Shown here: in pieces, positions 11,496 through 33,123 of the stretch
Position numbering within the stretch: position 1 is the first letter of the stretch
Layout: each line of letters starts with the position of its first letter
From: a virus
Virus record (IMG/VR): IMGVR_UViG_3300045988_051055
Coordinates: 1-40,772 of that record
Direction: 5' to 3' (one strand)
DNA length: 40,772 nucleotides
Translations under genes and position numbers: made by a program
Notes under the pieces: generated by a model
Databases searched by the model: none
The model's input: only the letters and a program-made list of their open reading frames with translations
What the model was told of the DNA's origin: nothing

Positions 11496-12062
11496 TTATT
11501 TGTCGTATTTTTCGTGGAGCGCACTGGCTAAGGTTGTGGGCTTGTCTTCGTGCTGTCCACCTTCAAGAGAACCTTGCGTGTCAACACGCGCCCCCGATTT
11601 AACAAATGCGCTCGGGTCTTCGGACTTTGCTTTCTCAAGATACTTATCGAACCCATCCAAAGCGCCGTCCTTCATTTCGAGCTTGCTGTCTCCGATACCC
11701 GCGCGGAAAGCCTTTTCCGCAGACTTGGAGGAAAACTTCACGCCGCTGTCGGCAATCGCCTTGTCAATGGCGGTCTGATAATCCCGCTGTGCAAGCTGTG
11801 CTTTGTACGCTTCGGTTTCCTTGTCGTACTTGCCCTGCAGCTCATCCAGCTTTTCCTGGATTTTGGCAGCGTCACCGCTGGTCTTTTTCAGCTCCGCGAT
11901 GTCCTTATCTCGGTCTGCGACCTGCTGTTCCAATGCGTCCTTGTCCGCCTTCGCGTCCTCTGCGGCTTTCTTGTGCTTCTCGATGTCCTTGCCGTTCATG
12001 GCAAAAACCTTTTCCGCCTGCTCTTCCGTCAGGCCGATGTTCAACAGCTCTTCTTTCTTCAT
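11496..12062 (-). CDS. Scaffolding protein (GP20-like) (188 aa)
   Basis: Highly charged K/E/D/A coiled-coil sequence upstream of the capsid gene. ATG at 12062 lies 6 nt after AAGGAG; the track start at 12068 is a TTG. Confidence 0.8.
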   Translation of the reverse strand: MKKEELLNIGLTEEQAEKVFAMNGKDIEKHKKAAEDAKADKDALEQQVADRDKDIAELKKTSGDAAKIQEKLDELQGKYDKETEAYKAQLAQRDYQTAIDKAIADSGVKFSSKSAEKAFRAGIGDSKLEMKDGALDGFDKYLEKAKSEDPSAFVKSGARVDTQGSLEGGQHEDKPTTLASALHEKYDK

Positions 12063-12217
12063 GTTCAACTCCTTACGGGATAGGCTTTTTAGGTCGTTGC
12101 CGTGACCGCCCCGCCTGCACTTTTAGGCTTGCAGATAGCCAATTTTGTATAAAATCCGCACACGCGGTTTTTACTGAAAAAACAAAGTCAACTAACACGC
12201 ACGATTTTTGTTGTCGA

Positions 12218-28804: not shown

Positions 28805-28996
28805 TTACTTTTCATCGGGCTTTAAAAGCTCGTCCACGGTCACGCCGTACATTTTCGCCAGTTTTTTGTGGTACTTCCGCAACGGTCGCCAGTCGCCAAG
28901 CTCCCAATGCGTCACGCAGGATGGGTCAACATTCAGTTTCTTCGCCACCTGTGCGCGGGTCAGTCCGGAGCGTTCTCGCAGCTCTCTCAATGTCAA
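28805..28996 (-). CDS. Cro-like XRE HTH protein (63 aa), TTG start
   Basis: TLRELRERSGLTRAQVAKKLNVDPSCVTHWELG. GGGAGGA lies 7 nt upstream. First gene of the minus-strand early operon, divergent from the plus-strand switch elements. Confidence 0.75.
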   Translation of the reverse strand: MTLRELRERSGLTRAQVAKKLNVDPSCVTHWELGDWRPLRKYHKKLAKMYGVTVDELLKPDEK

Positions 28997-29025
28997 ATTT
29001 GCGTCCTCCCTTCATTGTGAGTTAT

Positions 29026-29043
29026 CATTGACTGCGGCAGGGA
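29026..29043. repeat. 18-nt inverted-repeat arm 1 (CATTGACTGCGGCAGGGA)
   Basis: Its reverse complement occurs at 29435..29452 (17/18 identical). Overlaps the -35 of the plus-strand promoter. Confidence 0.9.
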
Positions 29044-29056
29044 GATTTGCTATACT
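29028..29056 (+). promoter_or_regulatory. Consensus sigma70-type promoter (lysogenic side of the switch)
   Basis: TTGACT (29028-33), 17-nt spacer, TATACT (29051-56). Its -10 overlaps back-to-back a minus-strand TATAGC / TTGCCC pair that could drive cro. Confidence 0.7.
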
Positions 29057-29062
29057 GCCATT

Positions 29063-29435
29063 AGCCCTCTTTGGGCAACTTCAAAGGAGGTGGTTTTCGT
29101 GACCAACCTTTTGATTTTGCCTGTTCCCTTCCCGTCGGGTCGCAACAGCGGTGCCAAAGCGCGTTAAACTGGCTAAATGTAGCAACTGATACGGCGGAGC
29201 ACTCAGTGAAGAGGTTAAAACTCACGGTGATATGCCAGTAATCATATCCCACCGTATCGGGTACTCCCGATGGCTTACCAGCGAGAAGGCCATGCGCAGA
29301 ACCAAAACTGCGAAAGTGGTAAGGCTCCCGAAGAACCTGTAGGCTGTTGCAGGCGGCGAAAGCCTGCAAGGGGCATTGGGTAAACAAATTTGGACATTGG
29401 CCGGTGAGGACAGCCCCTCGCCGGTCTTATGTTTT
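29063..29435 (+). ncRNA. Candidate structured non-coding RNA (~375 nt), family not recognised
   Basis: Bounded by the promoter above and a terminator (stem 29399-29409/29416-29426, then TTATGTTTT). Several hand-paired helices, listed in the findings. No credible ORF on either strand. Confidence 0.55.
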
Positions 29436-29452
29436 CCCCGCCGCAGTCAATG
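29435..29452. repeat. 18-nt inverted-repeat arm 2
   Basis: tccccgccgcagtcaatg is the reverse complement of CATTGACTGCGGCGGGGA. Confidence 0.9.
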
Positions 29453-29486
29453 CCCACCGAAACCTCATAAACATGAGAAATCACAC

Positions 29487-29515
29487 TTGACACCGCCCCG
29501 AAAGCGTATTACAAT
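29487..29515 (+). promoter_or_regulatory. Second consensus sigma70-type promoter
   Basis: TTGACA (29487-92), 17-nt spacer, TACAAT (29510-15). Confidence 0.7.
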
Positions 29516-29613
29516 GAAATCGCCAAAAGACATTGCAAAAGCCGCTTTTATGGGGGGCTGGTTTTTGTGTACCATTTTTTCGGTTGGCATGGTTATATGA
29601 TACCTCACTTTGC

Positions 29614-29646
29614 GGGGTAAGTCAATACTTGATACCCCATTTTTTT
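29614..29646 (+). terminator. Strong intrinsic terminator in the leader of the repressor-like gene
   Basis: GGGGTA(ag)TCAA-TAC-TTGATACCCC followed by A+T7. It is followed by a second hairpin GGGTTTT-GGC-AAAACCC and then the RBS. Confidence 0.8.
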
Positions 29647-29682
29647 GGGTTTTGGCAAAACCCACAAATTGAGGTGCGCGTT

Positions 29683-30063
29683 TTGATAAGATATGATAGA
29701 ATTCAAGAGCTTGTAAATCTTTGCGGGAAAAAGAAAAGCTTCCTTAGCGAAGCAATGGGGTTCTCATCGAGATATTTAATTGATGCCAAAAAGCAAAACA
29801 CAAATATCGCCGATGAACCGTTGCAAATTCTCGCAAAAGAGCTTAAAACCACTCCTGAATACCTCCGTGGCGAAACGGATGACCCGGGCATAAATGAAGC
29901 CCTCGATCCGAAGACCGAGGGCGTAAAAAAAGCCCTCGCCACAGAGGGCGAGGACTATACGGAGTTGCAGAAGGCCGCTATTCAGTTTGTGTTGTCATTG
30001 CCGCCGGAAAAGCTGGAGCGATTTATAAAAATGGGCCGCGCTGCTTTTGAGGAAGACCAATGA
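29683..30063 (+). CDS. XRE-family repressor-like protein (CI candidate) (126 aa), TTG start
   Basis: TTG lies 5 nt after GAGGTG. HTH segment KSFLSEAMGFSSRYLIDAKKQNTN...LAKELKTTPEYLRGETDDP. Divergent from the cro-like gene. Confidence 0.75.
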   Translation: MIRYDRIQELVNLCGKKKSFLSEAMGFSSRYLIDAKKQNTNIADEPLQILAKELKTTPEYLRGETDDPGINEALDPKTEGVKKALATEGEDYTELQKAAIQFVLSLPPEKLERFIKMGRAAFEEDQ

Positions 30064-31408: not shown

Positions 31409-31828
31409 ATGAACATCCAAGAAGTGTGTAGAATCCGTAAAGAAGAATTGAAACTGACCTATCAGGAAATTTCCGACGTTTCCGGCGTACCGCTGTCCAC
31501 CGTGCAGAATTTCTTTTCCAAGTTTTCAAAAGCTCCGTCCATCTACACCGTCGCGCCGATCTGCAAAGCGCTTGGAATATCGCTTGATGAAGCGTTCGGG
31601 ATTTCCGAACACTTGACGCCGACCGAGAAAACCTTGCAAGCGCGGAATGATGAGCTGGAACGCCATGTTGACGCAAAGGCCGATACCATTGAGATCATGC
31701 GGCGCGGTGTGCGTATCCGCAATGGCGTGATTGCTATATTGTTCCTCATCACCGTTTTTCTCGCTGCGTGGTGCGTGTACATCGATTTCCATTGCATAGA
31801 TTACGGATTTTGGAGGGGGGTTCGATGA
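31409..31828 (+). CDS. XRE HTH protein with coiled coil and C-terminal TM anchor (139 aa)
   Basis: AAGGTGG RBS. HTH segment LTYQEISDVSGVPLSTVQNFFS. TM segment VIAILFLITVFLAAWCVYI. ATGA overlap with the integrase start. Confidence 0.75.
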   Translation: MNIQEVCRIRKEELKLTYQEISDVSGVPLSTVQNFFSKFSKAPSIYTVAPICKALGISLDEAFGISEHLTPTEKTLQARNDELERHVDAKADTIEIMRRGVRIRNGVIAILFLITVFLAAWCVYIDFHCIDYGFWRGVR

Positions 31829-33123
31829 GAGCGGCATTGTATATCCGCGTCTCGAGCGAAGAACAAGCGCGGCATGGCCTGTCCCTGCAAGAGCAGCGGG
31901 ACGCGCTAATGAGATATGCCAAAGCAAATAAAATGTTGGTGGTTGGCATATATGAGGACGCGGGTATATCCGCGCGAAAGCCGTATAAACAGCGTCCTGC
32001 GCTTCTGCGGCTGCTGGATGATTGCAAAGCGGGAAAGGTAGACACGATCCTATTTATCAAGCTTGACCGATGGTTTCGCAATGTCGCAGGGTACTACGAT
32101 GTGCAGACGCAGTTGGACAAATACGGCGTGACATGGCAGGCGACGGAAGAAGACTACGAGACGCGCACCGCGTCCGGGCGCTTAAAGGTAAACATCATGC
32201 TTTCCGTCGCGCAGGACGAGGCCGACCGCACAAGCGAGCGGATCAAATTTATCAACGACGGCAAGCGCGCAAAAGGCCAACCGGCAGGATCAAAAGCCCC
32301 TTTAGGGTATATTGTTAAGGACAGGCAATACCAGATTGATAACGATACGGCAGATGCCGCGCGAGATATGTTTGCGGCGTATATCAGACTGCAAAGCGTG
32401 CTGGGCGTAAAGAAGTATATGCTTGAGACGTGGGGGATTGACAGGGCGTATACCAAATATGTAAACTATTTCCGCAATCGCCTTTATATCGGCGAGGTGT
32501 ACGGCATCGAGAACGCTTGCCCCGCCCTGGTGAGCAAGCAGGATTTTGACATTGTAAATGATATTCTTCGCCAGCGGTCGCAGCGCTGCGCGGGAGTTGA
32601 GACAGATCGCGTTTATCTGTTTTCGGGGTTGCTGCATTGCAAAGAGTGTGGGAAAACGATGCAGTCGGAAACGGCAAAGCATATCTATACCTACTACCGA
32701 TGCCGGACGCGAATGCTTGACAACTCCGCGTGCCAGCATAAAAAGAGGATCCGCGAAGACGCGCTGGAAGATTACTTATTGCATGAGCTTGAAGGGATTG
32801 CCGAGCGAAACAATCGCTATTACAAAAAGGCAGAAAAAAAGCCCACGCAAAGCGCGGACGCGATACGAAAGAAAATGAGCAAGCTGAAAACGCTTTATCT
32901 GAATGATTTGATCGAGTTGGACGAATACAAGCGGGAGTATGCGAGCTTGAAGAAATCCCTTGAAGCGGTAGAGGAAAAGCCGAAGACAAACCTTGATGCG
33001 CTCCGAAATGGGCTTGCTGAATATGACACTTACTCCCGGGAAGAGAAAAAGGAATTTTGGACGCGCTTTATCCGGAGAATTGACGCAGATGACGACGGCG
33101 CGTTTTTTGTAACGCCACGTTAG
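31825..33123 (+). CDS. int: Large serine recombinase (phage integrase) (432 aa)
   Basis: MRAALYIRVSSEEQ catalytic Ser motif, a resolvase domain, then a recombinase/zinc-ribbon region (CKECGKTM...YYRC) and a coiled coil. GGAGGGGGG RBS. Confidence 0.92.
   Translation: MRAALYIRVSSEEQARHGLSLQEQRDALMRYAKANKMLVVGIYEDAGISARKPYKQRPALLRLLDDCKAGKVDTILFIKLDRWFRNVAGYYDVQTQLDKYGVTWQATEEDYETRTASGRLKVNIMLSVAQDEADRTSERIKFINDGKRAKGQPAGSKAPLGYIVKDRQYQIDNDTADAARDMFAAYIRLQSVLGVKKYMLETWGIDRAYTKYVNYFRNRLYIGEVYGIENACPALVSKQDFDIVNDILRQRSQRCAGVETDRVYLFSGLLHCKECGKTMQSETAKHIYTYYRCRTRMLDNSACQHKKRIREDALEDYLLHELEGIAERNNRYYKKAEKKPTQSADAIRKKMSKLKTLYLNDLIELDEYKREYASLKKSLEAVEEKPKTNLDALRNGLAEYDTYSREEKKEFWTRFIRRIDADDDGAFFVTPR

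What the first reader, a model, noticed from the sequence alone, without database searches (positions are those of the whole stretch)
29026..29452. ~375-nt promoter-to-terminator structured RNA in the middle of the lysis/lysogeny switch, bracketed by an 18-nt inverted repeat
The cro-like gene (TTG 28996, minus) and the repressor-like gene (TTG 29683, plus) are separated by 686 nt with no credible ORF. That is unusually long for a phage switch. On the plus strand a near-consensus promoter (TTGACT-17-TATACT, 29028-29056) is followed ~345 nt later by an intrinsic terminator (29399-09/29416-26 plus TTATGTTTT). The transcribed stretch pairs into many helices by hand: 29066-73/29082-90 (burying an AAGGAGG), 29225-34/29243-54, 29256-61/29266-71, long-range CTTACCA/TGGTAAG 29274-80/29317-23, 29295-99/29308-12, and 29347-54/29362-69 with a GAAA-containing loop. 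CATTGACTGCGGC(A/G)GGGA overlaps the -35 (29026-43) and recurs inverted just past the terminator (29435-52), so the unit has matching ends. These could be operators, possibly for looping, or module boundaries. The -10 overlaps back-to-back with a plausible cro promoter, so this RNA would come from the lysogenic side of the switch yet terminate before the repressor gene. Possible roles are an RNA-based immunity factor (compare P4 CI RNA and P1 c4 RNA), a ligand- or protein-controlled attenuator gating read-through toward the repressor, or a new phage ncRNA class.
Basis: partly seen in the sequence, partly recalled or inferred. Interest (0 to 1): 0.8.

Follow-up and report, generated by a model that had tools for sequence, protein, structure and literature searches.

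The report
Known FuFi-1 RNA inside phage switch
The stretch is a real, strongly conserved ~370-nt structured RNA gene whose core is the already catalogued FuFi-1 RNA of unknown function; new here are a conserved ribosome-binding leader and a position pointing backwards inside the start of the prophage's lytic transcript, which makes its function testable.

Summary
A near-consensus promoter (29028-29056), an intrinsic terminator (29399-29436) and an 18-nt inverted repeat (29026-43 / 29435-52) bracket a ~370-nt RNA with strong covariation support.

It is not a new class. Bases 29274-29430 are a full-length match to Rfam RF02986, FuFi-1 (118.8 bits, cut-off 59.6), an orphan RNA whose function is unknown.

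Four points go beyond the Rfam model:
1. Conservation runs from the promoter to the terminator in more than 110 gut-phage contigs and 12 Clostridia genomes.
2. Every form carries a 5' hairpin, a Shine-Dalgarno sequence, a start codon and a short leader ORF. There is no codon periodicity, so ribosome loading seems selected rather than the peptide.
3. Helices A-C (29133-29272) are an optional expansion.
4. The unit is a discrete 435-bp cassette in the 5' part of the early lytic (cro) transcript, on the opposite strand. A relative with the same switch lacks it. There cro can only be read from the promoter equivalent to window 29625-29597.

Best reading: an independently transcribed countertranscript opposing early lytic expression. 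Its conserved fold implies an additional host partner, possibly the ribosome. The mechanism is inferred, not shown.

The attenuator, inverton, operator and missed-protein-gene readings are disfavoured.

The parts
29018..29452 (.). FuFi cassette as an insertion/deletion unit (435 bp). It is bounded by the microhomology TCATTG (29012-17) / TCAATG (29447-52).
   Evidence: Alignment with L197. L197 has the same cro and a switch region aligning with few mismatches, and reads CCTCCTT|TCAATACCC at the junction.
29026..29043 (.). Left arm of the 18-nt inverted repeat, CATTGACTGCGGCAGGGA. It overlaps the -35 of the RNA promoter.
   Evidence: Lineage-specific repeats sit in the same positions in other phages.
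29028..29056 (+). Promoter of the RNA: -35 TTGACT 29028-33, TG 29048-49, -10 TATACT 29051-56.
   Evidence: The -35 and the extended -10 are conserved in alignment A1. A + promoter sits at this position in 27 of 32 lineages.
29063..29434 (+). Full-length FuFi RNA, about 370 nt. The ends are inferred from the promoter and terminator, not mapped.
   Evidence: nhmmer full-length matches in more than 110 viral loci and 12 genomes. Structure support. G.U against A.C cells are 102-132 against 24, which favours the + strand.
29064..29076 (+). 5'-terminal hairpin, GCCC/GGGC.
   Evidence: Helix 1. It is conserved as GCC..GGC in all lineages.
29083..29093 (+). Shine-Dalgarno-type sequence AAAGGAGGTGG, 8 nt before the GTG.
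   Evidence: An AAGGAG-type SD is present in essentially all 76 unique homologues.
29099..29167 (+). Leader mini-ORF: GTG, 22 codons (MTNLLILPVPFPSGRNSGAKAR), stop TAA.
   Evidence: The start codon (TTG/GTG/ATG) is kept in 75 of 76 unique sequences. An in-frame ATG compensates where TTG became TTA. No codon periodicity.
29133..29272 (+). Optional middle domain. Helix A 29133-39/29266-72; helix B 29147-50/29160-63; helix C 29185-96/29250-62; hairpin V 29229-34/29243-48.
   Evidence: Covariation, coordinates. The domain is absent from the short forms L190, L206, L129 and L254.
29274..29430 (+). Rfam FuFi-1 core (RF02986). P1 29274-80/29317-23; P2 29295-99/29308-12; P3 29324-28/29370-74; P4 29336-42/29347-54; P5 29355-57/29362-64.
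   Evidence: cmscan 118.8 bits against cut-off 59.6, E 1.9e-25, model positions 1-175. Pair counts.
29302..29393 (+). Pseudoknot: P2 loop CCAAA (29302-06) with UUUGG (29389-93).
   Evidence: 100% paired, with C-G to U-A covariation 11:5 (helix 9). The pairing is also kept, as CCGGA:UCUGG, in the short form L190 (read).
29399..29436 (+). Intrinsic terminator: stem 29399-409/29417-27 plus a U-tract.
   Evidence: All 9 pairs covary (helix 13).
29435..29452 (.). Right arm of the inverted repeat, TCCCCGCCGCAGTCAATG. It ends exactly at the cassette junction.
29487..29515 (+). Promoter of the repressor-like gene, TTGACA-17-TACAAT (11/12).
   Evidence: The same promoter is present in cassette-less L197.
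29597..29625 (-). Early lytic (cro) promoter, TTGACT-17-TATCAT (10/12). It points leftwards through the cassette.
   Evidence: It is the only minus-strand promoter upstream of cro in L197. Equivalent 10-12/12 minus-strand promoters lie downstream of the RNA in 22 of 32 lineages.
28805..28996 (-). cro-like HTH gene (63 aa). It is the first gene of the minus-strand lytic operon.
   Evidence: Pfam HTH_31 at 1.4e-12 and HTH_3; PHROG repressor/regulator families.
29683..30063 (+). Repressor-like HTH gene (126 aa).
   Evidence: PHROG 8 at 3.8e-6. Proteins at the equivalent position in other loci are HTH_3 (11/20), Peptidase_S24 (5) and Phage_CI_repr (3).

Best explanation
Bases 29028-29436 are a complete gene for a long-form member of the FuFi-1 RNA family. 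Its parts, in order, are:
- its own sigma-A-type promoter;
- a 5' hairpin;
- a Shine-Dalgarno sequence plus start codon with a short leader ORF;
- an optional three-helix expansion;
- the pseudoknotted FuFi-1 core;
- an intrinsic terminator.

The gene is a discrete 435-bp cassette lying in the 5' untranslated leader of the early lytic (cro) transcript, on the opposite strand. The cro promoter is at 29625-29597, next to the repressor gene. Its transcript must read leftwards through the whole cassette to reach cro.

The RNA is therefore made convergently to, and is fully complementary to, about 370 nt of the cro leader. The most likely function is that of a countertranscript. It would be made from its own promoter while the lytic promoter is repressed. 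It would then damp any early lytic expression in two ways: RNA polymerase collision, and duplex formation with the leader followed by cleavage of the duplex.

The conserved ribosome-binding leader most likely loads a ribosome, which would stabilise the RNA or remodel its fold. The leader ORF always runs into the first closing helix.

Identity and anatomy are shown. The direction of the regulatory effect, expression in lysogens and the role of the ribosome are inferred.
For: Identity:
- Rfam FuFi-1, 118.8 bits, full model.

Whole-unit conservation and structure:
- Conservation from promoter to terminator.
- 92.4% of cells paired, 52 compensatory pairs, slid controls 37-43%.
- G.U cells 102-132 against A.C 24, which fixes the + strand.

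Leader:
- SD plus start codon in 75 of 76 unique homologues, with a compensating in-frame ATG where TTG became TTA.
- No codon periodicity.
- The leader is retained in short forms that lack helices A-C.

Position in the cro leader:
- L197 has the same cro and switch but no cassette. The only minus-strand promoter there is the equivalent of 29625-29597.
- No usable minus-strand promoter lies between the RNA promoter and cro in the window.
- 22 of 32 diverged lineages have a 10-12/12 minus-strand promoter just beyond the RNA terminator.
- Where a small gene lies between that promoter and the cassette, its sequence reads as a Cro-like HTH protein. This is by inspection; no domain search was run.
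- Downstream + strand genes are CI-type repressors.

The same layout occurs in a cultured strain, Vescimonas fastidiosa MM35.

Ribosome binding to an SD near a 5' end is an established RNA stabiliser in Firmicutes (STAB-SD, PMC4113751).
Against: - No transcript data exist. Promoters and ends are consensus predictions.
- The predicted duplex ends about 55 nt upstream of the cro SD (29003-29010). It would not occlude the ribosome-binding site directly, so the sign of any effect is open.
- A plain antisense RNA does not need an invariant pseudoknotted fold kept across more than 20 lineages with unrelated repressors. This points to a structure-dependent partner that the model does not name.
- One family member (L144, Acetatifactor) lies between chromosomal genes (DUF6783 and rplM-rpsI) with no convergent gene.
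- The antisense orientation could merely be the only orientation in which a terminator-bearing insert does not kill the early operon.
- FuFi-1 RNAs showed no self-cleavage, and no other activity has been reported (PMC5737381).
Confidence: 0.45

Rival explanations
1. Trans-acting RNA 'moron'. The cassette would be a self-contained, prophage-expressed RNA whose conserved fold binds a conserved host component such as the ribosome, an RNase or another protein. It would act on the host or on superinfecting phages, for example in exclusion or physiology. Its place in the cro leader would be only a tolerated harbour next to the immunity region, and the antisense orientation would simply avoid terminating the early operon.
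For: - Deep conservation of sequence and fold that antisense action does not require.
- A chromosomal copy with no phage genes and no convergent gene.
- Presence, absence or swapping of the cassette among phages with the same switch.
- A promoter-gene-terminator layout typical of morons.
- A conserved ribosome-binding site.
- Weinberg et al. judged the motif to have features of a sophisticated biochemical function.
Against: - The cassette always sits in the promoter-proximal part of the early lytic operon, before or just after cro, in lineages whose flanking proteins are unrelated. A generic moron would be expected at many sites.
- No partner protein gene co-occurs.
- No trans target was found in the window.
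Confidence: 0.3
2. Conditional attenuator or establishment leader. The RNA would be a long leader whose terminator is read through under some condition, such as a ligand or stalling on the leader ORF. Transcription from 29028-56 would then continue into the repressor gene, as from lambda P_RE.
For: - Same orientation as the repressor gene in all phage loci, 190-500 nt upstream of it.
- The leader ORF is reminiscent of leader-peptide attenuation.
- The fold has riboswitch-like complexity.
Against: - An 11/12 promoter for the repressor gene lies between the terminator and the gene, and so does the convergent cro promoter.
- RNAalifold found no conserved alternative pairing involving the terminator arms, which covary only with each other.
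- The leader ORF ends about 230 nt before the terminator in the long form.
- The chromosomal copy has no repressor gene downstream.
- Weinberg et al. considered a riboswitch role improbable.
Confidence: 0.08
3. Dual-function RNA or micropeptide mRNA. The product that matters would be the 12-40-aa peptide (MT[KQNE][LF]LxLP..), and the structured remainder would be a regulatory or stabilising 3' UTR.
For: - SD, spacing and start codon are conserved, with a compensatory ATG.
- The N-terminal roughly 10 residues are similar across lineages, including the diverged form L129.
Against: - Third codon positions are as constrained as first and second positions: 0.125/0.125/0.119.
- Stop position and C-terminus drift freely between 12 and 40 aa.
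- Frame-shifting indels occur after codon 8 in the L002 group.
- There is no signal peptide, and 12 aa cannot span a membrane.
- The most conserved bases lie outside the ORF.
Confidence: 0.07
4. The inverted repeat would define an invertible DNA switch, or be the terminal repeats of a mobile element, with the RNA as cargo.
For: - 18-34-nt inverted repeats flank the promoter-bearing cassette in 8-11 lineages.
- The cassette is an indel with its junction at the repeat end and 6-bp microhomology.
Against: - The inverted-orientation junction was found in 0 viral contigs, against 27 with the native junction.
- Repeat sequences differ between lineages while the cargo is conserved. This is the opposite of a transposase-recognised end.
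- About 20 of 31 lineages have no such repeat.
- No dedicated invertase or transposase lies nearby.
Confidence: 0.05

Closest known systems
FuFi-1 RNA motif (Rfam RF02986; Weinberg et al. 2017, PMC5737381)
   Same: Bases 29274-29430 match the whole 175-position model at twice the gathering score. They show the same helices, the invariant GCAGAACCAAAACUGC hairpin, the GGGUAAACAAAUUUGG stretch and a 3' intrinsic terminator. The relatives are in Firmicutes (Clostridia).
   Different: The Rfam model starts at P1. It does not include three features seen here:
- the conserved promoter-proximal leader (5' hairpin, SD, start codon, leader ORF), found in every homologue collected;
- the 140-nt expansion (helices A-C);
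- the placement antisense in the early lytic operon of prophages.
No function is known for the family. No self-cleavage was observed.
Phage countertranscripts: lambda OOP RNA, P22 sar RNA, the lambda P_RE transcript (from my own knowledge)
   Same: Short RNAs made from their own promoter on the strand opposite an early lytic message in the immunity region. They are fully complementary to it and lower its expression.
   Different: Those RNAs are 69-77 nt (OOP, sar) and simple hairpins. They overlap coding sequence or the ribosome-binding site, and they are not conserved between unrelated phages. Here the RNA is about 370 nt with a pseudoknotted fold kept across lineages and a ribosome-binding site. 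It stops short of the cro ribosome-binding site.
P4 CI RNA and P1/P7 c4 RNA immunity factors (from my own knowledge)
   Same: RNA rather than protein contributes to prophage immunity, and the RNA is encoded in the early leader region.
   Different: CI and c4 are cut out of the leader transcript itself. They act on repeated complementary target sites on that same transcript. Here the RNA has its own convergent promoter and terminator. No repeated complementary sites exist in the window.
Convergent-promoter switches of coliphages 186 and P2 (from my own knowledge)
   Same: Face-to-face lytic and lysogenic promoters whose transcripts overlap. Transcriptional interference is part of the switch. 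In the window the promoters at 29487-29515 (+) and 29625-29597 (-) already face each other, and the RNA promoter adds a second one firing against the lytic promoter.
   Different: In 186 and P2 the convergent transcript is the repressor mRNA. Here the extra convergent unit makes a terminated, structured non-coding RNA.
STAB-SD and ribosome-mediated 5' stabilisers of Firmicutes RNAs (cry3A; PMC4113751)
   Same: A strong SD close to the 5' end that binds a 30S subunit and blocks 5'-3' decay by RNase J1. The window has AAAGGAGGTGG about 20 nt from the predicted 5' end, after a 5' hairpin.
   Different: [quoted passage not shown] Here a correctly spaced start codon is also conserved, so a full initiation complex or short translation is probably involved.
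Morons: prophage genes with their own promoter and terminator, expressed in lysogens (from my own knowledge)
   Same: A compact promoter-gene-terminator unit that is present or absent among otherwise near-identical phages.
   Different: The cargo is an RNA, and the insertion site is constant rather than scattered.

Membership tests
FuFi-1 RNA (RF02986) | Covariance-model score at or above the curated gathering score over the whole model. | tested here: met
   118.8 bits against 59.6, model positions 1-175, E 1.9e-25.
FuFi-1 RNA (RF02986) | Helices of the model are kept through compensatory changes in homologues. | tested here: met
   P1-P5 are 91-100% paired, with 2-6 compensatory pairs per helix.
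FuFi-1 RNA (RF02986) | Rho-independent terminator at the 3' end. | tested here: met
   29399-29436. All 9 stem pairs covary.
FuFi-1 RNA (RF02986) | Occurrence in Firmicutes or Fusobacteria. | tested here: met
   True homologues lie in Oscillospiraceae, Lachnospiraceae, Acutalibacteraceae and Vescimonas. No Fusobacteria were among my pattern hits.
cis-antisense countertranscript (OOP/sar type) | Encoded opposite a target transcript that reads through it. | tested here: met
   This rests on prediction and comparison only. The cro promoter lies beyond the cassette in the window and in 22 of 32 lineages. The cassette-less relative L197 uses the same promoter.
cis-antisense countertranscript (OOP/sar type) | Both transcripts exist, and pairing changes target expression. 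| not testable with these tools
   This needs RNA-seq or Northern blots plus mutants.
cis-antisense countertranscript (OOP/sar type) | The duplex covers the target's ribosome-binding site or coding region. | tested here: not met
   The RNA 5' end is near 29063 and the cro SD is at 29003-29010, a gap of about 55 nt. In lineages where the cassette follows cro, it is intercistronic.
P4 CI / P1 c4 immunity RNA | Processed from the leader transcript, and acts on repeated complementary sites elsewhere on it. | tested here: not met
   The RNA has its own promoter and terminator. The best complementarity elsewhere in the window is 12 nt, E 0.72.
Riboswitch or transcription attenuator | Lies in the 5' UTR of the regulated gene with no intervening promoter, and has a terminator/antiterminator alternative. 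| tested here: not met
   An 11/12 + promoter and the convergent - promoter lie between the terminator and the repressor gene. No alternative pairing appears in the consensus fold.
T-box leader / tmRNA / tRNA-like | A match to the curated models. | tested here: not met
   cmscan at E up to 10 over 28950-29750 gave only FuFi-1 and one chance hit. ARAGORN found no tRNA or tmRNA.
Invertible promoter segment (inverton) | Inverted repeats flank the segment, and both orientations are present in populations. | tested here: not met
   The repeats are present. The inverted junction occurs in 0 viral contigs against 27 with the native junction. Read-level data were not available.
Protein-coding gene | Codon-periodic substitution pattern and a conserved reading frame. 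| tested here: not met
   Variability by phase is 0.25/0.24/0.22 over the RNA and 0.125/0.125/0.119 in the leader ORF. Indels are not multiples of three.

The most novel reading that the evidence does not exclude
FuFi RNAs would be a widespread RNA layer of the lysis-lysogeny decision in temperate phages of gut Clostridia. They would be ribosome-loaded countertranscripts embedded in the early lytic operon. Their pseudoknotted fold, and hence their ability to pair with or interfere with the lytic transcript, would be toggled by initiation or translation on a conserved leader ORF that runs into the closing helix. The host's translational state would thereby be coupled to early lytic expression. 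The flanking inverted repeat would form a long-range stem that packages the complementary domain in the cro leader.
Probability: 0.18. Interest if true: 0.85.

Novelty: new member of a known kind. Interest (0 to 1): 0.6.

Why it matters
FuFi-1 is one of a handful of orphan bacterial RNAs that Weinberg et al. (2017) singled out as having features of a sophisticated biochemical function. The searchable literature reports nothing more about it.

The family now has a concrete context:
- a fixed genomic niche, antisense and promoter-proximal in the early lytic operon, next to CI-type repressors;
- a previously unmodelled conserved ribosome-binding leader;
- natural cassette-plus, cassette-short and cassette-minus phages that share one switch;
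- a cultured carrier, Vescimonas fastidiosa MM35.

Together these turn an open question into a set of simple genetic and transcriptomic experiments. If the RNA does gate early lytic expression, it would be a common, unrecognised control element in prophages of dominant human-gut Firmicutes.

The Rfam model should also be extended in the 5' direction.

Tried and rejected
- Rfam at a permissive threshold over the gap gave only FuFi-1, with no hit for the 5' 215 nt. There was no tRNA or tmRNA.
- T-box idea. GTGGTnCC in helix B resembles the T-box core. There is no model hit, and the motif lies 270 nt from the terminator. Dropped.
- Missed protein gene, including the 108-aa minus-strand ORF 29061-29387. 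There is no periodicity, the indels break the frame, and covariation is present.
- Inverton. The inverted-junction pattern was absent.
- Operators shared with the switch. The repeat arms occur only twice per locus in 8 lineages. The window's operator-like repeats (TGATACCYCAYTTT) are a different sequence.
- G.U bias test on the repeat mismatches. Six single-mismatch lineages favour pairing in the minus-strand (cro leader) RNA, but L047 and L102 favour the other strand. Inconclusive.
- Long-range pairing UGCCU (29118-22) with GGGUA (29378-82). RNAalifold predicts it, but the bases are invariant and the pairing is missing in L129. Not established.
- Trans targets in the window: none.
- Strand-bias of flanking ORFs as an orientation test was too noisy in G+C-rich DNA.
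- Literature: four searches found no functional work on FuFi-1 beyond the 2017 paper. Its supplementary text is not held.
- Annotated collections. The phage collection gave only one unannotated record. The plasmid collection gave the Vescimonas prophage.
- A covariance model of the full RNA was not built, because the length exceeds the tool's practical limit. An nhmmer profile was used instead.
Full report
**1. The observation.**
- The consensus scan finds a + strand promoter, TTGACT-17-TATACT, at 29028-29056. It scores 10/12 and has a TG extension. It also finds an intrinsic terminator at 29399-29426 with 11 pairs, 8 of them G-C, and the tail TTATGTTTTC. The scan found six promoter-like sites in 1.1 kb, against 1.0 expected.
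- The 18-nt inverted repeat lies at 29026-43 / 29435-52 and is 17/18 complementary. No other copy occurs in the window beyond 3-mismatch chance hits.
- The flanking genes are a 63-aa HTH protein (28805-28996, minus strand; Pfam HTH_31 at 1.4e-12) and a 126-aa HTH-like protein (29683-30063, plus strand; PHROG 8).
- The rest of the window is a siphovirus-type prophage with its lytic genes on the minus strand. A large serine recombinase lies on the plus strand.

**2. What it is.**
cmscan against Rfam places 29274-29430 (+) in RF02986, FuFi-1. The score is 118.8 bits against a gathering score of 59.6, over the complete 175-position model, with E = 1.9e-25. FuFi-1 was described by Weinberg et al. 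2017. [quoted passage not shown] They judged it an improbable riboswitch, and it showed no self-cleavage (PMC5737381). Four literature searches found nothing later on its function. The claim of a new ncRNA class therefore fails. The RNA itself is real.

**3. The family is larger than its Rfam model.**
- A pattern built from two invariant stretches retrieved at least 119 IMG/VR contigs and 68 genome contigs.
- blastn shows that similarity to diverged loci starts at window position ~29072-29083 and runs to ~29435. It is not confined to 29274-29430.
- After clustering at 90% there are 26 clusters, of which 3 are chance matches. The alignment shows conservation of the -35, an extended -10, a 5' hairpin, GAAAGGAGG, a start codon, a block ACCAAACTTTTGAnTTTGCCTGCTCCC, further blocks, the FuFi-1 core and the terminator.
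- A full-length profile matches end to end in about 110 viral loci and 12 Clostridia genomes. The taxa are Oscillospiraceae, Faecousia, Agathobacter, Eubacterium, Acutalibacteraceae, Lachnospiraceae and Acetatifactor. The other genome hits are chance.

**4. Structure.**
- RNAalifold on 16 diverged sequences gives 63 pairs, 45 of them with compensatory changes.
- On a 78-pair structure that includes a pseudoknot, 92.4% of cells pair. Sliding the partners gives 37-43%. None of 500 shuffles reached any observed measure, and 52 pairs change on both sides.
- New, supported helices lie in the 5' half (coordinates):
  - A: 29133-39/29266-72
  - B: 29147-50/29160-63
  - C: 29185-96/29250-62
  - hairpin V: 29229-34/29243-48
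- The P2 loop CCAAA (29302-06) pairs with UUUGG (29389-93). The C-G to U-A covariation is 11:5 and no pair is broken.
- G.U cells outnumber A.C cells by 102-132 to 24, so the plus strand is the structured one.
They are lineage-specific alternatives that conflict with covarying helices. Details are in the observation check.

**5. The leader.**
- In 75 of 76 unique homologues, an AAGGAG-type SD is followed after 7-9 nt by TTG, GTG or ATG. The exception is L127, which has CTG.
- In the three lineages where TTG has become TTA or CTT, an ATG sits one codon upstream in frame.
- The ORF begins MT(K/Q/N/E)(L/F)LxLP. It ends anywhere from codon 12, the commonest case, to codon 40. In the window it spans 29099-29167, giving 22 aa.
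- Variability by codon phase is flat: 0.125/0.125/0.119 for the first 11 codons and 0.25/0.24/0.22 for the whole RNA.
- I conclude that ribosome loading is selected, that the bases are constrained as RNA, and that the peptide probably is not the product.
- A 5' hairpin plus a strong SD is how Firmicutes RNAs are protected from RNase J1 (STAB-SD; PMC4113751). That this applies here is inference.
- The ORF always runs into the 5' strand of the first closing helix, which is helix A here and P1 in the short forms. Translation and folding should therefore compete. This too is inference.

**6. Variants.**
- Relatives of the window's repressor gene carry one of three states: the same long cassette, a short one, or none.
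- The short form (L190, L206) keeps the same flanks, inverted repeat, promoter, hairpin, SD and ATG leader. It joins them directly to a diverged FuFi-1 core (103-108 bits) with no helices A-C.
- Other variants exist:
  - L129 is another short form, with an MKALISALLP leader.
  - L253 has a ~95-nt insertion in P5.
  - L106 and the L002 group have reduced middle domains.
- The core of the family is therefore leader plus FuFi-1. Helices A-C are a peripheral expansion.

**7. Where it sits.**
- L197 has a cro gene about 85% identical in protein (my reading) and a switch region that aligns with few mismatches, but no cassette. Its cro SD abuts the sequence that follows the window's right repeat arm: CCTCCTT|TCAATACCC.
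- Between cro and the repressor gene in L197 there are only two strong promoters. These are + TTGACA-17-TACAAT and - TTGACT-17-TATCAT, the equivalents of window 29487-29515 and 29625-29597. The minus-strand one must therefore be the cro promoter.
- In the window, no acceptable minus-strand promoter lies between the RNA promoter and cro. The cro transcript must therefore cross the 435-bp cassette (29018-29452). That makes the RNA a convergent, fully complementary countertranscript of the cro leader.
- The pattern is general:
  - 22 of 32 diverged lineages have a 10-12/12 minus-strand promoter shortly beyond the RNA terminator.
  - The next plus-strand gene is a CI-type repressor: HTH_3 in 11/20, Peptidase_S24 in 5, Phage_CI_repr in 3.
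  - A small divergent gene starts 52-91 nt upstream of the RNA.
  - In 13 or so lineages a small gene lies between the lytic promoter and the cassette, so the cassette follows cro instead of preceding it. Its sequence reads as a Cro-like HTH protein by inspection. No domain search was run.
- The common denominator is antisense and promoter-proximal in the early lytic operon.
- The same layout is present in a cultured strain, Vescimonas fastidiosa MM35.
- One exception is L144 (Acetatifactor). There the RNA lies between DUF6783 and rplM-rpsI, with no phage genes nearby.

**8. The inverted repeat.**
- It is perfect (18/18) in most close relatives, for both the long and the short cassette.
- Repeats of different sequence occupy the same two positions in L017, L047, L102, L004, L037, L126 and L180, with weaker cases in three more lineages. 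The left arm lies over or beside the -35, and the right arm lies 0-70 nt after the terminator. About 20 lineages have none.
- Each arm occurs only once per locus, and never near the switch promoters.
- The inverted-orientation junction is absent from viral contigs: 0 against 27 native junctions.
- Only the minus-strand cro leader contains both arms. Its predicted fold closes the whole complementary domain with this stem, in both the MFE and the centroid structure.
- The mismatch pattern is inconclusive.
- I regard a long-range stem in the cro leader, possibly an RNase III site, as the leading idea. Dedicated protein sites are the alternative. Neither is shown.

**9. Mechanism and rivals.**
- Best supported (confidence 0.45): a countertranscript made from its own promoter that opposes early lytic expression by polymerase collision and duplex formation, with a ribosome-binding leader for stability or remodelling.
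- The weakness is that antisense action alone explains neither the invariant fold nor the chromosomal copy. A structure-dependent host partner is therefore likely.
- The main rival is a trans-acting RNA moron (0.3).
- The attenuator, micropeptide and inverton/mobile-element readings are each below 0.1, for the reasons given in their entries.

**10. Verdict.**
This is a typical long-form member of a known orphan family, so it is not categorically new. The anatomy and context worked out here go beyond the Rfam model and the 2017 description as far as I could check. They cover the leader, the expansion, the pseudoknot covariation, the cassette boundaries, the convergent placement in the switch and a cultured carrier. 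The 2017 supplementary text was not available. These results make the family's function directly testable.

Noticed in passing
window 12081-12140 (-): GP20-b RNA (Rfam RF03003, 55.8 bits against a cut-off of 36.2). It lies directly upstream of the scaffold protein gene 11496-12068 (-), which matches Pfam Phage_scaffold at 3.2e-32. This is the expected position for this cis-regulatory motif.
   Followed up: partly
window 29487-29515 (+) and 29597-29625 (-): The repressor-gene promoter and the cro promoter face each other, and their transcripts would overlap by about 70 nt. This is a coliphage 186/P2-like convergent geometry. Other lineages have the two promoters back to back.
   Followed up: partly
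window 29598-29611, 29630-29643 (+); 29470-29483, 29014-29027 (-): The direct repeats TGATACCTCACTTT and TGATACCCCATTTT flank the hexamers of the cro promoter. Two 3-mismatch copies lie beside the repressor-gene promoter and beside the left repeat arm. They are candidate operators.
   Followed up: partly
L144 3576-4007 (-), Acetatifactor sp. MAG: A FuFi RNA with the leader ORF MKAILNLPAPLIQGRIIKTEQR sits in a chromosomal setting with no phage genes. The gene order is truA, MBOAT, unknown, DUF6783, FuFi, rplM, rpsI. L123 carries a close relative next to a 544-aa gene that by eye resembles a cardiolipin synthase, which was not checked.
   Followed up: partly
L190 1951-2251; L206; L254 3968-4300 (Vescimonas fastidiosa MM35 pMM35_01, record about 218.9-219.3 kb): A short-form cassette joins the same promoter and leader directly to a diverged FuFi-1 core. 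In L190 and L206 it has the same inverted repeat as the window. The Vescimonas copy lies in a cultured, sequenced strain, between two annotated HTH regulators of a prophage with an integrase.
   Followed up: yes
L253 1621-1884 (MT835537.1, human faecal phage): A FuFi-1 core with an insertion of about 95 nt in hairpin P5. This is another site where the family tolerates an expansion.
   Followed up: no
window 29169-29173 and 29233-29237: A possible extra pseudoknot in the middle domain: the joiner ACUGG with the hairpin-V loop CCAGU. By eye it covaries in L017 (ACCGG/CCGGU) and is G.U-compatible in L010. It is absent in several lineages.
   Followed up: no
window 31409-31828 (+) and 31768-33123 (+): A second HTH_3 protein with a hydrophobic C-terminus overlaps the start of a large serine recombinase (Resolvase plus Zn_ribbon_recom; PHROG 95 integrase at 4e-99). 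It may be the real maintenance repressor or an excision regulator.
   Followed up: no
window 29003-29010 versus 29083-29091 (minus-strand transcript): The complement of the RNA's SD places CCUCCUUU in the cro leader, about 75 nt upstream of the cro SD AAGGGAGG. The two could pair over 8 bp. Pairing of the FuFi RNA with the leader could therefore free, rather than block, the cro ribosome-binding site.
   Followed up: no
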